A stretch of 64,000 bases of DNA, from the NCBI GenBank assembly GCA_021815315.1, contig JAKAHB010000002.1:6427-70426 (forward strand), in the 5' to 3' direction. Position numbers and translations under genes: made by a program. Positions 9,442 through 61,535 of this stretch are shown here, in pieces (positions within the stretch are counted from its first letter, which is position 1; the number at the start of each line of letters is the position of its first letter). Source of the stretch: a bacterium (GTDB lineage: Bacteria; Patescibacteriota; Minisyncoccia; Portnoybacterales; JAKAHB01). The notes under the pieces are model-generated. The model did not search any database. It had not been told where the DNA came from and was given only the letters and a program-made list of their open reading frames with translations.

Positions 9442-9456
9442 CTTTAATTTCAACCT

Positions 9457-9500
9457 AAAGACCCGTCCTTAACTAAAAGAGCGGGTCTTTAGGTTTTTTT
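9457..9500 (+). terminator. intrinsic terminator after pth
   Basis: aaagacccg...cgggtcttt hairpin followed by a T7 run. Confidence 0.75.
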
Positions 9501-9504
9501 ATTT

Positions 9505-9661
9505 TTTGTTTGGCAAGGCACTACCTGCAAGCCTCAGAAGGCGGTCCGACTAGCGGTTCCTTCCAAAATTAACAGCTACTGGCGAGAGAGTTAGGAGGGT
9601 TTTCTCTGCTTTGGCCACTCGCAGGTAGAGCGCTGCCAACAAAACTTTATCTTGTATTTGA
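9505..9661 (-). ncRNA. candidate small RNA, about 150 nt, with a GC-rich structured core
   Basis: Driven by the consensus promoter at 9668-9695. The core (9512-9625) is closed by an 8-bp helix CUACCUGC/GCAGGUAG and has internal hairpins. I see no convincing ORF and could not assign it to a known family. Confidence 0.3.
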
Positions 9662-9667
9662 TACTGT

Positions 9668-9695
9668 ATTATAGCAGAATAAAACATTTTGTCAA
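9668..9695 (-). promoter_or_regulatory. sigma-70-like promoter TTGACA-16-TATAAT
   Basis: Minus-strand reading gives TTGACAaaatgttttattctgcTATAAT. Confidence 0.5.
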
Positions 9696-9775: not shown

Positions 9776-10195
9776 TCAGGCATCAAGGCCTGAACGTTTT
9801 TTTTCCGGCTCGGCCGGTTTTGGCACCGCCGGGCAGATGATAACCCCGGCGTAGTGCCCCTCCTTGAAGAACAACTCCGGCTCCTGGAGGGGCGGGAAGT
9901 TGAACCTTTTTTCCAGCGCCTCCATGAGGAGCTGGGACTCGCTCCTCCCTTCTTTTTCTCCCCCCTCCCCCGAGAACGGGATGGCCCACTTCTTGCCCAT
10001 TTCGCCCATTTCGATTTCGTAGACGTTGTAGGCAAGAATCAACGTCTTCTTGCCGTCATTATCAAGGTGGAGCGTGATCCTCAGCTGCCCTATCGGCTCT
10101 TCACCGACCAGCTCCCCGGGGTCGGCCGAAACGAGCCCACCGCAGATCACCAGCAGGGCCAAGACGATCCCCACGACCACCAGAAACTTTTTCAT
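9776..10195 (-). CDS. hypothetical secreted/lipoprotein-like protein in a GC-rich cassette
   Basis: 139 aa with N-terminal signal peptide MKKFLVVVGIVLALLVICGG. SD GGGAGG 4 nt upstream. The segment is roughly 60% GC and uses GCC/CTG/GAC-type codons, unlike its neighbours. An alternative frame (9550-10035) is judged spurious. Confidence 0.5.
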   Translation of the reverse strand: MKKFLVVVGIVLALLVICGGLVSADPGELVGEEPIGQLRITLHLDNDGKKTLILAYNVYEIEMGEMGKKWAIPFSGEGGEKEGRSESQLLMEALEKRFNFPPLQEPELFFKEGHYAGVIICPAVPKPAEPEKKRSGLDA

Positions 10196-12345: not shown

Positions 12346-13332
12346 TCAAAAAGCCTCGTTTCTTGAGACAAGTCTTAGTTTTGTTCCTTCTATCCGGCCC
12401 GTGTTTAAAAAGGTGTTTAAATGTTCCCTAGAATTAAGCGTGTTGTTTGGCACCAACCCTAAAATTATTGCGATAATTTGGTCTGTTGTTTGAATAAACA
12501 TTTTCATTTCAGGAGTTTTTACAGCGGTACTCATTTTCCCAAAGTGTACCAACCTATTTCGAGCGTTTACCAACAACCGAACATTATTCCTTTGTTTATT
12601 ATTAAGACTGATGCCTAAATATTTATATAAAACATAGGATATTTTAACTTCCGATTTTGTATCTTTAAGATCTTTATCCGAAAGCCACTCTCTATTTTCA
12701 ATAGAGAATAATGACTCCCAAATTGTCCATGCGGTAAGGAAAGATTTTTCTATAATCTGCCATCGGATCATGTCCCTATATAAAATAAGAAAATATCCGT
12801 CATCGTATATATCCCTCCATTTGTTGGTTGAAACATGCTCTATCACCTTTTCAATTGCTGCATCAAATCCGGAAGAAACCCATTCCATGTCCCAAATAGG
12901 AATTCCGTTGGCAGTTTCCGGGTCAATAATTTCACCAGTGGCCTTGACCTTAAATTTTGAATTTAAATTTATAGACAACCTCAACTGACCGCCAAAAGCC
13001 GTATGCGGACGATAATCTTCTATTATTGGTTCCTCTCCGTTCCAGTCCTTAGCAAAAACATTTCTGCCAGTAAAAATAGAAAGAAAAAATAGAATGTCGT
13101 GAAGCTTTGTAAGAGCGGCATTTTCAAAGATCAAGGTTGCTTTTGCCTCTGTATCTGGGATACTCACTGTTGCGGTTATTTGATGGCTGCCTGTTATTTG
13201 GGTGACACTGTAATTAGGCATTAACCCGTACGCTTCGTCATAATTTGAAACTGCGTCAAAGACGTAATTACAAATATTTAACTGACGTACACCAGTAGGA
13301 AATTCTAAATTGTAAATAGATTTGTTCTCCAT
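12346..13332 (-). CDS. hypothetical two-domain protein with a C-terminal HEPN-like motif (Rx4-6H)
   Basis: 328 aa in an AT-rich segment. The C-terminal helical region contains NARNRLVHFG, which fits 'RNxxxH'. No other recognisable motifs. Confidence 0.45.
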   Translation of the reverse strand: MENKSIYNLEFPTGVRQLNICNYVFDAVSNYDEAYGLMPNYSVTQITGSHQITATVSIPDTEAKATLIFENAALTKLHDILFFLSIFTGRNVFAKDWNGEEPIIEDYRPHTAFGGQLRLSINLNSKFKVKATGEIIDPETANGIPIWDMEWVSSGFDAAIEKVIEHVSTNKWRDIYDDGYFLILYRDMIRWQIIEKSFLTAWTIWESLFSIENREWLSDKDLKDTKSEVKISYVLYKYLGISLNNKQRNNVRLLVNARNRLVHFGKMSTAVKTPEMKMFIQTTDQIIAIILGLVPNNTLNSREHLNTFLNTGRIEGTKLRLVSRNEAF

Positions 13333-14279: not shown

Positions 14280-14867
14280 TTAAAAATCCAAATTTAGTTT
14301 TTGGGCCTCTTCTTTGAATTTCTTTTTGGCCCGGCTTATCAAGGTAGCGACCGTTCCCATCGGTTTTTTCAAAATGTCGGAAATTTCCGTATAGTTTTTA
14401 TCTTCCAAAAATTTCAGCACCAATACTTCGCGATATTTTCCGTCCAAGCGGGATAAAACTCTTTTAATTTCTCCCGTTTTTTCTTTCCAGTGTATTTCTT
14501 TGTTTAAGTCCAAGTCGGAAGCCAATCTGCTTAGCAGCTCGTCGTTGTCGCTCAAATTATCCGCCTGGGGCCGAGCCTTTTGGCGGCGAAAAGCGCTGAT
14601 AACTTCGTTATGGGTAATACGATAGATCCAGGATGAAAATTTCAACGAAGGGTCAAAATTATTAAGATTCAAATAAGCTTTCAAAAAAACATCCTGCAAA
14701 ATATCTTCGGCGTCCTGCTCGTTGGACTGGGAAATTCGGTGGATGTATCTTTTGAGCTTGGCTTCGTATCTTTGCATCAAGCACAGGTAAAAATCCTCTT
14801 CCCGCAAGGAAAGAGTTGCCAGCTCTTCGTCGGTCTTTTGTCGCAAATAATCATTATTGATTCGCAT
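14280..14867 (-). CDS. ECF-type RNA polymerase sigma-70 family factor
   Basis: About 195 aa from the internal ATG at 14865-14867, with region 2 (DILQDVFLKAYLNLNNF) and a region-4 HTH (YTEISDILKKPMGTVATLISRA). The upstream part of the ORF-track ORF is Arg/Gly-rich read-through of the GC-rich cassette. Confidence 0.85.
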   Translation of the reverse strand: MRINNDYLRQKTDEELATLSLREEDFYLCLMQRYEAKLKRYIHRISQSNEQDAEDILQDVFLKAYLNLNNFDPSLKFSSWIYRITHNEVISAFRRQKARPQADNLSDNDELLSRLASDLDLNKEIHWKEKTGEIKRVLSRLDGKYREVLVLKFLEDKNYTEISDILKKPMGTVATLISRAKKKFKEEAQKLNLDF

Positions 14868-15061
14868 GACTATACCTTGTTTTATACGCGTTTCCCCTTC
14901 TTTTCTTTCTTTATTATATAATGCCGGCCTTGCCCGTTGTAAAGACCCGACCTTATGGCGGTTCGGACGGAAGACAATTTCCGCCTTGGTGAACTTTGGC
15001 CCGGTATTTGTTTCTTGCCGCTTGTCTGTCCGTCCCAGCGAACGGCTTGTGGGGAATAAAT

Positions 15062-15093
15062 AAAAAAAGCGGGGGCCGCGTGTGCGACCCCCT
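15062..15093 (-). terminator. intrinsic terminator of the small Cys-containing ORF
   Basis: gggggtcgcacacgcggccccc hairpin followed by a U7 run on the minus strand. Confidence 0.65.
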
Positions 15094-15148
15094 TGGGTTG
15101 TTCCTCCAGAAGCGCGAGGCCTGTGGCGCTCCACCAGGCCAGGGGGGC

Positions 15149-15376
15149 CTAGGTGGTGGCGATGCTGGCCAGGACGTTGGCCAAAAGCTCCTGCTTGATG
15201 CGCACGGCGCCCTCGCCGTGCCCGATCTTGCCTTCCAACTCCGTGGCGGCGCCCACGATGATGAGGTCGCCGGTGGCCTCGTCCTTGAACACGGCCGGGC
15301 AGCAGGAGCTGCCGCCGCACCTCTGATGCAGCGGGGTTAAGTTGGTCAGGCTGACTTTCTTCTTAACGGCGCTCAT
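15149..15376 (-). CDS. small hypothetical Cys-containing protein (75 aa) in a GC-rich cassette
   Basis: Reads MSAVKKKVSLTNLTPLHQRCGGSSCCPAVFKDEATGDLIIVGAATELEGKIGHGEGAVRIKQ.... A strong SD (GAGGAGG) sits immediately upstream, with a 7-bp hairpin abutting it. The segment is about 65% GC. Confidence 0.45.
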   Translation of the reverse strand: MSAVKKKVSLTNLTPLHQRCGGSSCCPAVFKDEATGDLIIVGAATELEGKIGHGEGAVRIKQELLANVLASIATT

Positions 15377-15428
15377 AGAAACCTCCTCGCGGACCCTGCA
15401 AAGGTCCGCCGTTTTGGGTTGATTTTTT

Positions 15429-15457
15429 CATTATAGGCATTATCCCAAACTTGTCAA
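15429..15457 (-). promoter_or_regulatory. sigma-70-like promoter TTGACA-17-TATAAT for the small Cys ORF
   Basis: Minus-strand reading gives TTGACAagtttgggataatgccTATAAT. Confidence 0.5.
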
Positions 15458-15488
15458 GGGCCCACTCCAAAAAACAGTTCCGCTCTTT

Positions 15489-15527
15489 CATTTGTATCTT
15501 CCACACCTAGGCGTGGAAGATACAAAT
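15489..15527. repeat. near-perfect palindrome, copy 1 of 2
   Basis: catttgtatcttccacacctaggcgtggaagatacaaatg in a divergent promoter region. It is a paralogue of the palindrome at 51666-51702. Confidence 0.6.
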
Positions 15528-15562
15528 GAATAGAAAAATAAATAATGTGTTAAAATATTTTT

Positions 15563-16657
15563 ATGCACCCATCCGCTCAATATTTTCATGCTTTTAATTC
15601 CTTCAATGAAAAAATAGGCCCGGTTAGATTCAAAAAAATAAAAACTTATTTTGGCGACCTGCCCACCGCCTGGAAGGGTTCGGCGGAAGACTTTGTCGCC
15701 GCCGGACTGGAAGAAAGCTTGGCTCAAGAAATCGTCTTGCGCCGCCAGAATTTTGACCCCGAGACGGAACTGCAAAAAGTTTTGGACCAAAACATTGATG
15801 TTTTAACCGTTGAAGACGACGCTTATCCCCTCTTACTAAAAGAAATTCACCAGCCTCCTTTTATCCTCTACAAACAAGGCGGTTTTGAGCTACAAGACGA
15901 ATTTGCTTTGGCCATTGTCGGCTCCAGAAAATTAACAGCCTATGGCCAGCAAGCCGCTACTAAACTGGCCCGAGAATTGGCGCAGGCGGGGCTGACCATT
16001 GTTTCCGGTCTGGCTCAAGGAATTGACACTTTGGCTCATCGCCAAGCGCTTGAGGTTGGCAGCCGGACTCTGGCGGTCATCGGTTCGGGCCTTGACCAGC
16101 CCAGCATTTTCCCGCCCGGTAACCGGCATTTGGCCCAAGAGATAGCGGCCAAAGGCTGTTTGCTTTCCGAATACCCACCTAAAAGTTTGGCCTTGCCGCA
16201 TCATTTTCCGGCGCGCAACCGTATTATAAGCGGACTGGCCCTGGGAACCTTGATCGTTGAAGCCTCAATAAAGTCCGGCGCGCTGATCACCGCCCGCCAC
16301 GCCCTGGAGCAAAACCGCGAAGTCTTTGCCGTCCCCGGGCCCATCACCTCCCCCAATTCCCTTGGCCCCAACAACCTGATTAAACTAGGCGCCAAAGCGG
16401 TTACTTGCGCCCAAGACATTTTGGACGAATTAAACCTGCAATCGCTCAAACAAAACATCCAAGCGCGAGAAATTTTGCCCGACACCAAAGAAGAGGCTCT
16501 AATTCTGGAAGTTCTTATTGACGAACCCGTTCATGTTGACAAAATAATTGAGTTGACTAAACTTGACACAGCCACGATCAACTCCGTTTTGTCAATGATG
16601 GAAATAAAAGGCAAAATTAAAAACTTGGGAGGGATGAATTATATTAAGAATTTTTAA
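15563..16657 (+). CDS. dprA: DNA processing protein DprA (Smf)
   Basis: Rossmann-like DprA core (LAVIGSGLD...PARNRIISGL...ALITAR). Confidence 0.9.
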   Translation: MHPSAQYFHAFNSFNEKIGPVRFKKIKTYFGDLPTAWKGSAEDFVAAGLEESLAQEIVLRRQNFDPETELQKVLDQNIDVLTVEDDAYPLLLKEIHQPPFILYKQGGFELQDEFALAIVGSRKLTAYGQQAATKLARELAQAGLTIVSGLAQGIDTLAHRQALEVGSRTLAVIGSGLDQPSIFPPGNRHLAQEIAAKGCLLSEYPPKSLALPHHFPARNRIISGLALGTLIVEASIKSGALITARHALEQNREVFAVPGPITSPNSLGPNNLIKLGAKAVTCAQDILDELNLQSLKQNIQAREILPDTKEEALILEVLIDEPVHVDKIIELTKLDTATINSVLSMMEIKGKIKNLGGMNYIKNF

Positions 16658-25861: not shown

Positions 25862-28340
25862 CTAAACAAGAATATTCACAGCTCTGCCCTTGATATAGAT
25901 GAATTTTTGGGGTTCTTGGCCGGCCAGCCATTTTTTAACTTTTATTTTGGCCAAAGCAAGTTTTTTTATTTCTTCTTCGGCAATTTCCGGCGCCACTTTC
26001 AGGGTATCGCGCAACTTACCATTAATCATAATCGGTATCTCAAGCTCTTCATCGGCGACCAAGGCTTGGTCATAGCGCGGCCACTCTTCCTCAAAAATGC
26101 TTTCTTGGTGCCCCGGTTTTTCCCAAAGTTCTTCGGCCAAGTGCGGAGCAAAAGGAGCCAAAAGTTTGACCAGGGACTCATATAAATTATTTGAGATTTT
26201 TTCAGCTTGGCCTAACTCGTTAACCAAAATCATCAAAGAGCTCACGGCCGTATTCAGCTTGAAATCAGCAATGTCCTGGCCAACCTTTTTTATCGTTTTT
26301 TGACCCAACGCCAGAAGAGCTCGGCTGTCCCGGTAGTCGCTGGCTACTTTTTCATTTAACCGCCAAAGTTTATCCAGAAATTTTCTGGCTCCAATTAAAC
26401 CATTGGTATTCCAAGCCACCGCCTGTGAAAAAGGCCCCATGAACATTTCGTAAATCCTCAAAGCATCCGCTCCGTACTTATCAATAATTTCGTCGGGATT
26501 GATGACATTACCCCAACGCTTACTCATTTTTCTTCCGTCTTCGGCCAAAATCAAACCCACGTGCTGGAGACGAGTAAACGGTTCTTTGTGATTAACCGCT
26601 CCAAGATCATAAAGAAATTTGTGCCAAAAGCGGGCATAGATCAAGTGCCGAGTCGCATGTTCGGCTCCACCCACGTAAAAATCGACTGGCGACCAATATT
26701 TATCCTTTTCTTCGCCCACTAGAGACTGCTCGTTGTTTGGGTCAATAAAACGCAAATAATACCAACTGGACCCGGCCCATTGGGGCATGGTGTTGGTTTC
26801 CCTTTTGGCCGCCGCGCCGCAAACAGGGCAGGGAACATTAACCCATTCCGCAATGCCAGCCAGCGGCGATTCGCCGGTGCCGGTCGGTTCGTATTTCTCC
26901 ACTTCTGGCAGAAGCACTGGCAAATCTTTTTCGGGCACCGGCACTGTCCCGCATTTTTCACAATGAATAATCGGGATTGGTTCGCCCCAATAGCGCTGGC
27001 GGGAAAAAACCCAATCTTGCAATTTATAATTTATTTTTTTTCCGCCCAATTTTTCTTTATCCAGCCATTCAACTAATTTTTCTTTGGCCTGTTCCGAGGT
27101 TAAATTGTCATATTCTCCGGAGTTAACCAGCCCGCCATAATCCACATAGCAAACCTGTCCGGCTTTTATCTGCTCGTAAATTTTTTTTGCCTGGTCGTCT
27201 TGCTCTCCCAAAAAACCGTCTTTTTGCCAAGGAACGATAACGCATTTTATGGGTAGATTATATTTTTTGGCAAATTCAAAATCGCGTTGATCATGCGCCG
27301 GCACGGCCATCACCGCGCCGGTGCCATAATGCGCCAAGACGTAGTCGGCCACAAAAAGCGGCAGTTCTTCTTGATTAAACGGATTAATAACTTTTACGCC
27401 CTCTAGTTCCACGCCGGTTTTTTCTTTGGCTTCCATCCGGTCCAGGTCGGTTTTTTTCTTTGATTCTTCAACATATCTTTCTACCTCTTCCCGGTTTTTG
27501 CATTCTCTCTCCAAGCTCCAAGAGCAAGGGATGTTCCGGGGCGACAACACAATAAGTACAGCCGTAGATCGTATCAAGCCTAGTGGTGAATACTTCCAAA
27601 TATTTTTGGTCGTTTGGATTTTTTGAATCAGAAATTGGAAATTTTATCGTTGCCCCTTCCGATTTGCCAATCCAGTTTTTTTGCATTTCCTTTATTGATT
27701 CTTCCCAATCTGGCAATTCTTGCAGATCTGCCAACAATCTGTCGGCGTAATCGGTAATCTTCAGTACCCACTGCCGCATCGGCTTGCGTTCAATTTCGCT
27801 ACCACATCTTTCGCACTTGCCGCCCTCCAAATCTTCATTGGCCAAGCCTGTTTTGCAACTCGGACACCAATTTATCGGCTCCTTTGATTGATAAGCCAAA
27901 CCCTGCTTAAAAAGCTGCAGAAAAATCCACTGCGTCCACCGATAAAAACGGGGCTCGGAAGTGTTTATTTCCCGATCCCAGTCATAAGTAAATCCAAACT
28001 TTTCCAGTTGCGACTTGAAAGCGGCTATATTTTGTTCAACCGCAATTCTTGGGTGGATTTTATTTTTGATGGCGTAATTTTCGGCCGGCAAACCAAAAGC
28101 GTCCCAACCCATGGGGTGAAGAACGTTAAAACCCTGCATCATTTTCATCCGGGCAAAAACGTCGGTAGCGATATAACCCTTGGGATGGCCCACGTGCAAA
28201 CCGGCTCCGGAAGGATAAGGAAACATGTCCAAAACATAGTATTTGGGCTTTTCTTGGCTTTCCGTTGCCCGATAGATGTTTGTTTCCGCCCATTTTTTTT
28301 GCCACTTTTTTTCAATTTCTCCGTGATTATATTTTTCCAT
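25862..28340 (-). CDS. leuS: leucyl-tRNA synthetase, reading frame interrupted (apparent +/-1 frameshift near 27500-27515)
   Basis: An N-terminal ORF (27468-28340; HVGHPKGY... ending [15 protein letters not shown]) and a C-terminal ORF (25862-27577; ...[17 protein letters not shown]..., KMSKRWGN) together make a roughly 820-aa LeuRS. The frames switch within a GAGAGAGA run. Confidence 0.85.
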
Positions 28341-28441: not shown

Positions 28442-28700
28442 TAAAAAAGGGGCCCCGGGGGGCCCGCCAGTTCAGCGCCTATAGCTCTCGTTGCACCTGT
28501 CCGCCTCTTCGGGCGTCGTTACCCGATAGTGGCCCCGGGGCTGCAAACTGCAGTCCAGATACCACCGACCTCAGGTCATGCCAAAGTGGAGCGTTCCTTT
28601 GCATCCCGCCTCGGGACACGGGTCGCCTTCTTTGGCGGCTTTCCACTGGGGTGAATCCTTGCTCGGCATACACCTTCCTCCGTAAAAGTTAACTTTCCCC
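28442..28700 (-). other. GC-rich structured transcript with a short ORF, immediately upstream of leuS (function unknown)
   Basis: Bounded by a promoter at 28701-28729 and the terminator GGGCCCCCCGGGGCCCC-U6 (28442-28468). It contains SD GGAGGAAGG and then either an ATG 31-aa ORF (MPSKDSPQWKAAKEGDPCPEAGCKGTLHFGMT) or a GTG 64-aa ORF. About 65% GC with many hairpins. I did not find T-box, RNase P or SRP signatures. Confidence 0.3.
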
Positions 28701-28729
28701 AGACTACCATTTTAATTTTGGATGTCAAG
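28701..28729 (-). promoter_or_regulatory. sigma-70-like promoter TTGACA-17-TAGTCT
   Basis: Minus-strand reading gives TTGACAtccaaaattaaaatggtTAGTCT. Confidence 0.45.
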
Positions 28730-56847: not shown

Positions 56848-56875
56848 TTGACAAAAACATTCTTTATGATATAAT
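56848..56875 (+). promoter_or_regulatory. consensus sigma-70 promoter TTGACA-16-TATAAT
   Basis: ttgacaaaaacattctttatgatataat; perfect hexamers. Confidence 0.55.
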
Positions 56876-56902
56876 ATAAGCAACTTTAACAGGAGGAAAG
56901 CC

Positions 56903-57094
56903 ATGGCCCCGAGAGCCTGTGTCGTCCTTCTGGAGCGGGGATGGACGCTGGAGGCGCCCTCTCCGGTCGTTCTTGGACCGAACGGCCGGCCCGCTACGCC
57001 CACTACCGGAACCTTGGTCCCGGTGACAACGGCAGAGAAGACTGCCGGAAAGGAGATCAACGTTGTTGTCCTCCCCGTTCTCCCCCACCGCTAA
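56903..57094 (+). CDS. small hypothetical protein (63 aa) in a GC-rich cassette
   Basis: SD AGGAGG 6 nt upstream of ATG. About 63% GC. Followed by the terminator at 57106-57131. Confidence 0.4.
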   Translation: MAPRACVVLLERGWTLEAPSPVVLGPNGRPATPTTGTLVPVTTAEKTAGKEINVVVLPVLPHR

Positions 57095-57105
57095 ACTCCC
57101 TCCCT

Positions 57106-57131
57106 CGGAGCCCCCACGGGCTCCTTTTTGA
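57106..57131 (+). terminator. intrinsic terminator of the 56903-57094 ORF
   Basis: ggagccc-ccac-gggctcc followed by a T5 run. Confidence 0.7.
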
Positions 57132-61039: not shown

Positions 61040-61372
61040 TTAGGCAGCTCTTCTTTGTGAATAGCAATCTCTGCAATAAACATCGCTACCGTCTTTTGGC
61101 TCAAACGGAAGCTCGTGGATGCTTGTTCCACAACCGGCGCATTTCCAGTTTCCAGAAACCATCCGACGAGGACCGCCGAAGTTGCCGCGAGGACCGCCGA
61201 AGCGGTTGCTCGGACGAGATTCTCTTTGAGAACGATGACATTCTTTGCAAAGAATGTCTTTGCCTTCTGTCGGCTCAAATGGTAATTCGGTTATTTCCGC
61301 TCCGCACTTAGAGCAAGTCCAATTGCCCTGAAACATTTGACGGGGTTGGAAATTGTCGTTGTTATAGGCCAT
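61040..61372 (-). CDS. tandem zinc-ribbon protein (two CxxC-x17-CxxC repeats)
   Basis: Repeats are NWTCSKCGAEITELPFEPTEGKDILCKEC and NWKCAGCGTSIHELPFEPKDGSDVYCRDC. SD AGAGGTGA upstream. Confidence 0.55.
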   Translation of the reverse strand: MAYNNDNFQPRQMFQGNWTCSKCGAEITELPFEPTEGKDILCKECHRSQRESRPSNRFGGPRGNFGGPRRMVSGNWKCAGCGTSIHELPFEPKDGSDVYCRDCYSQRRAA

Positions 61373-61535
61373 GGTTAATCACCTCTTTTCTGAACTCTAG
61401 TTAACTTATAACCTTGGCCTTTGATTACGACTAACGAATCTCTGACTACGGTTGACAATTAACTAACTAAACAAGTTATGTGCGAATTATAGCTTGTTGG
61501 CTTTTGTCTGTCAAGCAGCGCTTTCAAGCAGAAGT

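What the first reader, a model, noticed from the sequence alone, without database searches (positions are those of the whole stretch)
15062..15457. GC-rich mini-cassette: consensus promoter, 5'-UTR hairpin abutting a strong SD, 75-aa Cys-containing ORF, terminator
A roughly 330-bp segment at about 65% GC sits in a roughly 47% GC neighbourhood. Read on the minus strand it contains TTGACA-17-TATAAT, a 7-bp hairpin (gcggacc/ggtccgc) directly fused to GAGGAGG, an ATG, a 75-aa ORF (…HQRCGGSSCCPAVF…GDLIIVGAATELEGKIGHGEGAVRIKQ…) and a GC hairpin with a U7 run. Native genes around it mostly lack strong SD sequences; rpsU is an exception. So the expression signals and the composition both stand out. 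I could not assign the protein to a family. The hairpin-plus-SD arrangement suggests translational regulation. This is one of at least four similar GC-rich cassettes in the window; the others are at 9776-10195, 28442-28729 and 56848-57131.
Basis: seen in the sequence. Interest (0 to 1): 0.6.

Follow-up and report, generated by a model that had tools for sequence, protein, structure and literature searches.

The report
GC-rich stand-alone small-protein gene
A self-contained, probably horizontally acquired mini-gene in a candidate-phyla-radiation (Patescibacteria) chromosome encodes a 75-residue member of an unannotated two-cysteine protein family often carried by mobile elements. The gene is real, its function is unknown, and its extreme G/C codon bias has been oddly preserved.

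Summary
On the minus strand, 15457..15062 carries TTGACA-16-TATAAT (the spacer is 16, not 17). It also carries a 7-9 bp leader hairpin abutting GAGGAGG, a 75-aa ORF (15376..15149), and a 9-bp GC terminator with T7. It is the most GC-rich stretch of the 64-kb window. GC3 is 0.92, against 0.50 +/- 0.05 for native genes.

A syntenic relative, L001, keeps the promoter hexamers, spacer length, hairpin (one compensatory pair), SD, frame, stop and terminator.

More distant relatives have mfd next to dprA, or a different gene in the gap. The cassette is therefore a lineage-specific insertion in a variable gap and works like a phage 'moron' outside a phage.

The hairpin leaves the SD free. That favours mRNA stabilisation or insulation over SD-sequestering translational control.

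GC3 is held in both lineages (S<->W turnover 12% vs 47% in neighbours, p=1e-5) while the protein evolves fast (dN/dS 0.59). This is unexplained.

The 'four similar cassettes' claim is only partly true.

The parts
15430..15457 (-). sigma-70-type promoter TTGACA-16 nt-TATAAT (12/12 match)
   Evidence: one of 4 perfect sites in 64 kb, 0 expected. In L001 both hexamers and the 16-nt spacing are conserved while the spacer sequence has diverged.
15410..15424 (-). Predicted unpaired 5' leader (TSS inferred about 6-8 nt after the -10, not mapped). Contains CAACCCAA.
   Evidence: Inferred from the promoter position. The leader is nearly identical in L001. CAACCCAA recurs at 15100..15093, just before the terminator.
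15389..15409 (-). Leader stem-loop GCGGACC(UU)/(AG)GGUCCGC, 7-9 bp, ending at the base before the SD
   Evidence: forms in the MFE and the centroid structure in both window and L001. L001 keeps it through one A-U to G-C double change and one C-G to U-G change, with an unrelated loop.
15382..15388 (-). Shine-Dalgarno GAGGAGG, 5 nt before the ATG
   Evidence: Unpaired in the local fold. L001 has AAGGAG at the same place. Strong SDs are rare in this window.
15149..15376 (-). 75-aa ORF (stop included). Member of an unannotated C-x5-6-C-P small-protein family.
   Evidence: about 105 homologues; invariant C20, C26, P27, G42, E55. GC by codon position 0.55/0.46/0.92. Indels against L001 are 6, 3 and 15 nt, all in frame.
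15093..15148 (-). GC-rich 3' UTR, partly conserved in L001
   Evidence: alignment. Contributes to the unusually stable whole-transcript fold (z -3.7 in window, -3.2 in L001).
15062..15092 (-). Intrinsic terminator: 9-bp stem (8 GC), loop ACAC, then GC + T7
   Evidence: L001 has a 7-bp stem with different arm and loop sequences but the same T7 tract.

Best explanation
This is a monocistronic, self-sufficient accessory gene.

Expression. A consensus sigma-70 promoter drives a short leader. The leader's stem-loop sits flush against, but does not cover, a strong SD. A 75-codon ORF follows, and an intrinsic terminator insulates the unit from the ECF-type sigma-factor gene downstream. The promoter, SD and terminator are shown at sequence level and are conserved in a relative whose flanks have diverged to dS about 1. 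Their activity is inferred.

Origin. The unit lies in a variable gap between mfd and dprA in a Patescibacteria (CPR) chromosome. It is present only in the window lineage and its sister L001. Its composition (GC3 0.92 against 0.50) marks it as foreign. I therefore read it as a horizontal acquisition that predates the split of these two lineages. It is functionally a 'moron'-type add-on, but located in a chromosome (inferred).

Product. The protein is a small cytoplasmic beta-rich domain with a C-terminal helix. It belongs to a discrete, unannotated family of about 105 clusters. The family occurs in CPR bacteria, DPANN archaea, other bacteria, phage-like contigs and conjugative-element-like contigs. 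The family hallmark is a loop C-x5-6-C-P-A-[VI] inside an ~18-aa module, 'ITPxxxxCxxxxxCPA[VI][FY]E', present in 1-5 tandem copies. This is followed by G..[VI]I[IV]G and G-x-G-E.

Most likely workings (inferred, low confidence).
- The cysteine pair(s) bind a metal or form a redox-sensitive site. Single-module proteins would complete the site by dimerising.
- The protein serves a mobile-element/host-interaction role rather than core metabolism.
- The leader hairpin plus bound ribosome most likely protect the mRNA 5' end and keep the SD exposed whatever the upstream context. It is not a switch on translation.
- The G/C-ending codons are actively kept, most plausibly through selection on a compact, stable mRNA.
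For: Anatomy.

Coding status.
- 33 HMMER hits, then 87 profile hits, all small proteins.
- The invariant residues hold in alignments of 25 and of 72 sequences.
- Period-3 GC. Indels are in frame, and ATG and TAG are conserved in L001.

Conservation of signals in L001: (hexamers, 16-nt spacing, compensatory hairpin and terminator changes).

Foreignness.
- GC and GC3 are outliers.
- Other family members match the GC of their own hosts.

Insertion.
- Relatives have mfd->dprA->topA.
- The mfd-dprA gap is 98 nt in L065.
- It holds one unrelated ~245-aa membrane-protein gene in L013 and L066.
- It holds cassette + sigma + TM gene in L001.
- The window has those plus an AT-rich HEPN-like gene.
- No family member lies near dprA in any of 79 other DprA loci.

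Mobile-element association.
- L009: terminase small subunit and SSB.
- L011: replication initiator, DnaB and DNA methyltransferase, with an 8-nt overlap with the family gene.
- L006: ArdC-like anti-restriction gene immediately upstream, relaxase and primase nearby.
- L010: TraG/TrwB-type coupling protein.

Fold: pLDDT 87.4.

SD accessibility: SD free in both species.

GC3 maintenance.
- S<->W third-position differences at conserved codons are 5/40, against 376/807 in the four neighbours (Fisher p=1.2e-5).
- Transcript folding z-scores are -3.7 and -3.2.

Literature.
- Moron definition: PMC3594210.
- 5' stem-loop + RBS stabilisers: papers listed in the references of PMC3997798.
Against: - No expression data. 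The TSS is only inferred. If it is right, about 14 nt precede the hairpin, which is longer than classical 5'-terminal stabilisers tolerate.
- Only two orthologous sequences exist, so the hairpin covariation rests on a single double substitution.
- No donor was found, and the closest non-orthologous homologues are only 48-51% identical.
- The gene is as diverged as its flanks (78% nt identity) yet has not ameliorated. A simple 'old HGT' story does not predict that.
- No conserved gene neighbour exists across the family.
- No structural neighbour exists, and no hit in Pfam, NCBIfam, PHROGs, PADLOC or PDB sequences.
- The metal-binding and mobile-element-interaction roles are therefore guesses.
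- No family member was recovered from IMG/VR, cultured phages or PLSDB plasmids with the searches possible here.
Confidence: 0.6

Rival explanations
1. The leader hairpin is a genuine translational control element. It could be an operator for a protein (possibly the 75-aa product itself) or an sRNA, or a thermosensor or standby site. On this reading expression is switched, not constitutive.
For: The hairpin is conserved by structure, with a compensatory change, and sits directly against the SD in both species. The leader 5' of it is almost invariant. In the whole-transcript MFE of the window sequence, the SD/AUG region pairs with a GGAGG-containing 3'-UTR segment.
Against: The SD and AUG are unpaired in the local MFE and centroid structures of both sequences. 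The long-range 5'/3' pairing is not reproduced in L001. There is no Rfam hit. The local-fold z-scores are unremarkable (-0.7 and -1.9).
Confidence: 0.2
2. The high GC is a passive relic. The gene entered recently from a high-GC donor, or was recently swapped between the two co-occurring lineages by recombination through the conserved flanks. It is simply not yet ameliorated, and nothing selects on the synonymous sites.
For: dS of the gene (0.39) is lower than that of its flanks (0.8-1.2). Both variants occur in the same sample, SRR13240876. Each lineage already carries 3-4 private A/T third positions.
Against: Amino-acid divergence is 30%, with dN 0.23. That is 2-4 times the flanks, which is hard to fit with a younger coalescence. 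The upstream region and the region downstream of the terminator are also diverged, with indels. With GC3 0.92, the observed pS of 0.31 is close to what saturation allows. No donor-like sequence was found.
Confidence: 0.2
3. The protein is an establishment or anti-defence factor for incoming DNA. It would act on ssDNA or on a restriction/defence component, and the CPR lineage captured it beside dprA.
For: Immediate neighbours in independent contexts are an ArdC-like anti-restriction protein (L006), SSB one gene away (L009), a DNA methyltransferase with overlapping stop/start (L011), and DprA (window, L001). The protein evolves fast (dN/dS 0.59). A window-specific HEPN-like gene lies in the same gap.
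Against: - The adjacency to dprA is divergent and arises from insertion into a variable gap.
- Other contexts show no such neighbours (L007, L008, L063, L064).
- No PADLOC or PHROG match.
- Family pI is mixed (median 5.35).
Confidence: 0.15
4. The region is a structured non-coding or dual-function RNA, and the ORF is incidental to high GC.
For: The whole transcript folds more stably than shuffles (z -3.7 and -3.2). Synonymous sites are unusually conserved. High-GC DNA carries long ORFs in several frames, including the antisense ORFs at 14996-15340 and 15153-15326.
Against: About 105 protein homologues come from hosts of 29-60% GC, so they share protein sequence but not nucleotide composition. 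GC3 far exceeds GC1 and GC2 in this frame only. Indels are in frame. No Rfam family matches at E<=10 beyond noise. The antisense ORFs are the expected by-product of GC3-rich coding.
Confidence: 0.04
5. The region is an assembly chimera or contaminant.
For: There is an abrupt composition change over about 400 nt.
Against: The identical locus is present in three separate assemblies or read sets, and a diverged orthologue lies in the same synteny in two more.
Confidence: 0.01

Closest known systems
Phage 'morons' (independent add-on transcription units in prophages; Juhala/Hendrix concept, reviewed in PMC3594210)
   Same: A single extra gene with its own promoter and terminator. Its GC content differs from the neighbours. 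It is inserted between genes that are adjacent in related genomes. The family also occurs on phage-like and ICE-like contigs.
   Different: Here it sits between core chromosomal genes (mfd/sigma and dprA/topA) of a CPR bacterium. No phage genes lie within +/-10 kb. It has been inherited vertically across a speciation event.
5' stem-loop plus ribosome-binding-site mRNA stabilisers (B. subtilis aprE leader, E. coli ompA/papA 5' hairpins; listed in the references of PMC3997798)
   Same: A stable GC stem-loop in a short leader is immediately followed by a strong SD that stays accessible.
   Different: The predicted TSS leaves about 14 unpaired nt 5' of the stem. No half-life data exist. The RNase repertoire of this organism was not examined.
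Ferredoxin-type 4Fe-4S motif C-x2-C-x2-C-x3-C-P-[VA] (recalled from general knowledge)
   Same: The family motif ends in C-P-A-[VI]. The L001 orthologue reads C-C-x2-C-x2-C-P. Tandem modules supply cysteines in pairs.
   Different: The family invariantly has only two Cys, with C-x5-6-C spacing. No Fer4 Pfam model matches any of 25 members even at E<=1. The predicted fold is beta-rich with one helix and has no PDB neighbour.
Lineage-specific hypothetical small proteins of CPR/DPANN genomes
   Same: A short, unannotated protein, patchily distributed, found in Patescibacteria and Pacearchaeota MAGs.
   Different: This one belongs to a recognisable cross-domain family with five invariant residues and a confident predicted fold. 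In this host it carries a strong foreign-composition signature.

Membership tests
Phage moron | Own promoter and own terminator flanking a single gene | tested here: met
   Perfect -35/-10 and an intrinsic terminator, both conserved in L001. Sequence-level only; no transcript data.
Phage moron | GC content different from the surrounding genes | tested here: met
   ORF GC is 64.5% against 45% for the window. GC3 is 0.92 against 0.50 +/- 0.05.
Phage moron | Extra DNA relative to related genomes at the same position | tested here: met
   mfd and dprA are adjacent in L065. A different single gene fills the gap in L013 and L066. The cassette occurs only in the window and L001.
Phage moron | Located within a phage or prophage genome | tested here: not met
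   The neighbours are mfd, an ECF-type sigma factor, dprA, topA, relA, parAB, pth and hisS. No phage genes were seen. So it works like a moron but is not one in the strict sense.
Unannotated C-x5-6-C-P small-protein family (defined here) | Full-length HMM-level similarity to other members | tested here: met
   phmmer E-values from 2e-9 to 1e-3 for 29 small proteins. Profile search gave 87 proteins down to 1e-6. The profile scores the window ORF at 3e-26.
Unannotated C-x5-6-C-P small-protein family (defined here) | Invariant Cys-Cys-Pro loop, Gly of the [VI]I[IV]G strand, and Glu of G-x-G-E | tested here: met
   C20, C26, P27, G42 and E55 are invariant in 25-sequence and 72-sequence alignments.
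SD-sequestering riboswitch / RNA thermometer / leader attenuator | SD or start codon base-paired in the leader structure, or a terminator-like leader | tested here: not met
   SD and AUG are unpaired in the MFE and centroid structures of both orthologous leaders. No U-tract follows the hairpin.
SD-sequestering riboswitch / RNA thermometer / leader attenuator | Match to a curated cis-regulatory RNA family | tested here: not met
   Rfam 15 scan of 14850-15570 at E<=10 gave only sub-threshold noise.
5' stem-loop + RBS mRNA stabiliser | Stable stem-loop at or very near the mRNA 5' end | tested here: inconclusive
   The stem is stable and conserved. The inferred TSS leaves about 14 unpaired nt, and the TSS is not mapped.
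5' stem-loop + RBS mRNA stabiliser | Increases mRNA half-life | not testable with these tools
   Needs rifampicin-chase or reporter experiments.
4Fe-4S ferredoxin-type domain | Fer4-type HMM match and C-x2-C-x2-C-x3-C-P spacing | tested here: not met
   No Pfam hit for the query at E<=10, or for 25 members at E<=1. The window protein has C-x4-C-C-P.
PC4 / Pur-alpha / YdbC 'whirly-like' ssDNA-binding fold | Significant structural superposition | tested here: not met
Known anti-phage defence or phage protein families | PADLOC or PHROGs profile match | tested here: not met
   No hits.

The most novel reading that the evidence does not exclude
The C-x5-6-C-P proteins are a new class of mobile-element 'establishment' factor with two properties. 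First, a metal- or redox-dependent small protein that acts on incoming DNA or on host defence; its neighbours include ArdC, SSB, DNA methylase and DprA. Second, in this case a copy has been domesticated by a CPR bacterium beside its competence gene dprA. In addition, the extreme GC3 would be held by selection on the mRNA itself. That would make this a rare clear case of long-term synonymous-site selection on a foreign gene in a reduced genome.
Probability: 0.12. Interest if true: 0.6.

Novelty: new member of a known kind. Interest (0 to 1): 0.35.

Why it matters
It shows that this small ORF is a true gene. It defines a cross-domain, unannotated protein family of about 105 clusters, with five invariant residues, a repeatable Cys module and no structural neighbour. 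That family is a candidate for a new DUF and for structural and biochemical study.

It gives a clean example of a moron-like insertion in a CPR chromosome, at a gap (mfd-dprA) that repeatedly gains genes.

The preserved GC3 of 0.92 in a genome with GC3 of 0.50, alongside fast protein evolution, is a small but testable puzzle about synonymous-site selection or biased conversion in reduced genomes.

None of this overturns current understanding.

Tried and rejected
- **Structured ncRNA.** Rejected: protein homologues from hosts of very different GC, period-3 GC and in-frame indels. Rfam found nothing.
- **PC4/Pur-alpha-like ssDNA-binding fold.** Not reproduced with the deeper-alignment model. BFVD also gave nothing. 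afdb50 was unavailable.
- **Pfam, NCBIfam, PHROGs, PADLOC and PDB sequence searches.** No hits.
- **Conserved partner gene.**
  - A small class-I SAM methyltransferase lies within two genes downstream in 3 of the contexts examined (L006, L007, L010).
  - The three methyltransferases are not specifically related, and none is present in the window.
  - A divergent ~320-aa HTH_24 gene is shared only by the two DPANN loci.
- **RiPP precursor idea** (Cys, tandem N-terminal modules, methyltransferases). Rejected: conservation and a confident fold span the whole length, and no maturation enzymes are nearby.
- **Expression-linked codon bias.** Rejected: L35, L20 and other native genes have GC3 of 0.41-0.57.
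- **Donor search and presence in curated mobile elements.**
  - Nothing in INPHARED phages or PLSDB plasmids.
  - Nothing in IMG/VR, by peptide patterns, exact conserved DNA blocks or a degenerate GACPAIFE motif.
  - The single motif hit was a chance match.
- **CAACCCAA at both transcript ends.** Not enriched in the window, so chance cannot be excluded.
- **Integron cassette.** Rejected on inspection: it has its own promoter, no integrase nearby, and no attC-like site was looked for beyond the terminator.
- **Chimera.** Rejected because of independent assemblies.
Full report
**1. Observation**

- -35 TTGACA lies at 15457..15452 and -10 TATAAT at 15435..15430. They are separated by 16 nt, not 17.
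- A stem GCGGACC/GGTCCGC lies at 15409..15389. RNAfold extends it to 9 bp.
- GAGGAGG lies at 15388..15382, flush against the 3' arm of the stem. Five nt further on is the ATG at 15376.
- The 75-codon ORF ends at 15149.
- A 9-bp, 8-GC hairpin at 15092..15071 is followed by GC and seven T.

Perfect TTGACA-N16-18-TATAAT sites are rare: four in 64 kb, against 0.00 in shuffles.

The segment is the compositional extreme of the window.
- The highest 200-nt GC (0.705) and the highest 396-nt GC (0.646) both fall here. The window mean is 0.452.
- GC by codon position is 0.55/0.46/0.92.
- Forty-two native genes have GC3 of 0.50 +/- 0.05.
- No native 75-codon window exceeds 0.747, giving z = 6.1.

Strong SD sequences are uncommon upstream of native genes.

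**2. It is a protein-coding gene**

The word-indexed protein search found only the gene itself and one 67%-identical relative. Exhaustive HMMER against 1.8 billion representatives found 33 hits. About 29 of them are 65-140-aa proteins aligned over the full length. A profile search then raised this to 87 clusters.

Alignments of 25 and of 72 sequences share invariant C20, C26, P27, G42 and E55, with near-invariant T14 and A28/V29. The consensus is L.EITP...RC..GACPAVF....G.YVIIG...L.GRVG.GE.A.EIP.ELL.

The N-terminal module (ITP....C.....CPA[VI][FY]E) occurs once in 77 members, twice in 21 and three or four times in 7. One member carries five module-like repeats, the last degenerate.

Members come from hosts with 29-60% GC and match the composition of those hosts. 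What is conserved is therefore the protein, not an RNA.

No Pfam, NCBIfam, PHROGs, PADLOC or PDB-sequence match exists for the query or for 25 members. Source annotations say only 'hypothetical protein', including Candidatus Pacearchaeota records.

**3. Orthologue and conservation of the signals**

L001 comes from a different assembly and from the same sample series. It carries the gene in the same place, between dprA and an ECF-type sigma-factor gene. The gene caller over-extended it to 87 aa. The aligned ATG gives 69 aa.

In the intergenic alignment:
- both promoter hexamers and the 16-nt spacing are conserved, while the spacer sequence has diverged;
- the leader 5' of the hairpin is almost identical;
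- the hairpin is kept through an A-U to G-C double change and a C-G to U-G change, with an unrelated loop;
- the SD (AAGGAG), ATG and TAG are in register;
- coding indels are 6, 3 and 15 nt;
- the terminator keeps its stem through different arm sequences, and keeps T7.

This is the pattern expected for a functional promoter-leader-ORF-terminator unit.

**4. Where it came from**

The best DprA matches among GTDB species representatives are about 50% identical and come mostly from Patescibacteria/Saccharibacteria-type MAGs. The host is therefore a CPR bacterium without a close representative in that collection.

Relatives share the order mfd -> dprA -> topA. The mfd-dprA gap varies:

| Locus | Content of the mfd-dprA gap |
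|---|---|
| L065 (DprA 64% identical) | 98 nt, no gene |
| L013, L066 | One unrelated ~245-aa membrane-protein gene |
| L001 | Cassette + sigma + 250-aa membrane protein |
| Window | The same three genes plus an AT-rich (36% GC) 328-aa gene |

The 328-aa gene has a sub-threshold Apea-like HEPN hit and an R-x4-H motif.

A family HMM run on six-frame translations of all 79 other DprA loci found no member.

The gap is therefore a variable insertion site, and the cassette is a gain specific to the window/L001 lineage. Together with the foreign composition, this supports horizontal acquisition before the two lineages split. No donor could be identified.

**5. Family contexts**

Eleven independent contexts were read.

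Several are mobile-element-like.
- L009 has a terminase small subunit and SSB.
- L011 has a replication initiator, DnaB and a DNA methyltransferase whose stop overlaps the family gene's start.
- L006 has an ArdC-like anti-restriction gene directly upstream, plus a relaxase-family protein and a primase.
- L010 has a TraG/TrwB coupling protein.
- The P0015 contigs are runs of small ORFans.

Others are chromosomal: two DPANN loci with a divergent HTH_24 gene, L064, and the window.

No partner gene is conserved. Class-I methyltransferases lie downstream in three loci but are unrelated to one another.

**6. Structure**

With 72 sequences, AlphaFold2 gives pLDDT 87.4 and pTM 0.69. The model has short beta-strands at residues 10-12, 28-32, 38-45 and 57-59 and a helix at 62-74, with the Cys pair in the loop before strand 2.

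**7. How the RNA part most likely works**

In both orthologues the hairpin forms in the MFE and centroid structures while the SD and AUG stay single-stranded. It therefore does not sequester the ribosome-binding site. It is not followed by a U-tract, and no Rfam leader or riboswitch matches.

The nearest known arrangement is a 5' stem-loop plus strong RBS acting as an mRNA stabiliser or insulator. Examples are the aprE leader and the ompA/papA hairpins, listed in the references of PMC3997798.

The caveat is that the inferred TSS leaves about 14 unpaired nt before the stem. Translational control through a factor that binds the hairpin remains possible.

**8. The unexplained part**

Against L001:

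| | Flanking genes | Small gene |
|---|---|---|
| dS | 0.8-1.2 | 0.39 |
| dN/dS | 0.05-0.13 | 0.59 |
| dN | 0.06-0.15 | 0.23 |

GC3 is 0.92 in the window and 0.93 in L001.

At codons with the same amino acid, third positions that are G/C in at least one genome differ as S<->W in 5/40 cases. In the neighbours the figure is 376/807 (Fisher p=1.2e-5).

G/C-ending codons are thus retained about four times better than in native genes, while the protein changes faster.

Genome-wide expression-linked codon bias does not explain this, because ribosomal-protein genes have GC3 of 0.41-0.50.

The whole transcript folds more stably than dinucleotide shuffles in both species (z -3.7 and -3.2). I therefore favour selection on mRNA compactness or stability. 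Biased gene conversion, or a later lateral swap between the two co-occurring lineages, cannot be excluded.

**9. The other 'cassettes'**

- 9776-10195 (-) is a real 139-aa signal-peptide protein gene. GC3 is 0.77. It is about 45% identical to its L001 counterpart and has its own terminator but no consensus promoter.
- 56848-57131 (+) has a perfect promoter, AGGAGG and a terminator. Its 63-aa ORF has no homologue and no period-3 signal.
- 28442-28729 (-) has a promoter-like site, an SD, a 32-aa ORF, a 130-nt GC-rich tail and a terminator. It shows no coding signal, no Rfam match and no unusual fold.

The four are alike in being GC-rich stand-alone units. They are not related to one another, and only two are validated genes.

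**10. Verdict**

It is best filed as a horizontally acquired, moron-like accessory gene in a CPR chromosome. It encodes a member of an unannotated, partly mobile-element-borne two-cysteine protein family of unknown function.

The translational-regulation reading is not supported. Interest is moderate. It rests on a new DUF-grade family with no structural neighbour and on the small puzzle of conserved GC3.

Noticed in passing
window 9455-9695 (-): A second perfect TTGACA-16-TATAAT (with TG) lies at 9695..9668, just after the terminator of the 139-aa gene. It drives about 170-200 nt with no convincing ORF, ending at a hairpin GACCCGC...GACGGGTC near 9485..9455. This is a candidate small RNA. No Rfam hit reaches threshold.
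   Followed up: partly
window 15487-15530: A 44-nt near-perfect palindrome (22-nt arms, 95% complementary, no spacer) lies between the dprA start and the cassette promoter. It is unique in the window and is not conserved in L001, which has a different hairpin (AAGGCCGG...CCGGCCTT) at that place. It could be an operator or an insertion scar.
   Followed up: partly
window 12346-13332 (-): An AT-rich (36% GC) 328-aa gene in the same mfd-dprA gap, absent from L001. It has a sub-threshold Pfam HEPN_Apea hit (E=0.002) and an R-x4-H motif (RNRLVH). It may be a HEPN RNase or defence/toxin gene, and it marks the gap as a small variable island.
   Followed up: partly
window 9776-10195 (-): A GC-rich (GC3 0.77) 139-aa protein with an N-terminal signal or anchor sequence, a strong SD and its own terminator. 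It is conserved but fast-evolving (about 45% identity) in L001 8879-9193. No Pfam or PADLOC match.
   Followed up: partly
window 56848-57131 (+): A perfect promoter, AGGAGG, a 63-aa Pro/Thr/Val-rich ORF (56903-57094) and a terminator. The ORF has no homologue among 5.8 billion proteins and no period-3 GC. Whether it codes for protein is unresolved.
   Followed up: partly
window 28442-28729 (-): A GC-rich unit with a TTGACA...TAGTCT promoter-like site, a GGAGGAAGG SD, a 32-aa ORF (MPSKDSPQWKAAKEGDPCPEAGCKGTLHFGMT), a 130-nt GC-rich tail and a GGGCCCC/GGGGCCC terminator. No Rfam match and no unusual fold stability.
   Followed up: partly
window 61040-61514 (-): The fourth perfect promoter (61514..61486) precedes a 110-aa protein made of two treble-clef zinc-finger repeats (Pfam zf_Tbcl_2, E=1e-22), with an 8-nt SD match.
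   Followed up: partly
window 25862-28340 (-): Leucyl-tRNA synthetase is split into two overlapping ORFs in different frames (27468-28340 and 25862-27577). The break falls inside the editing domain. This could be an assembly frameshift, a pseudogene or a real split or recoding.
   Followed up: partly
window 15414-15421 and 15093-15100 (-): The octamer CAACCCAA occurs in the 5' leader and again just before the terminator. Both copies are conserved in L001. It is not enriched in the window, so it may be chance.
   Followed up: partly
L006 4539-6252; L011 5283-6387; L009 6001-7275: Family members on mobile-element-like contigs sit next to an ArdC-like anti-restriction gene, overlap a DNA methyltransferase gene by 8 nt, or lie one gene from SSB. 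These positions look like early or leading-region positions.
   Followed up: partly
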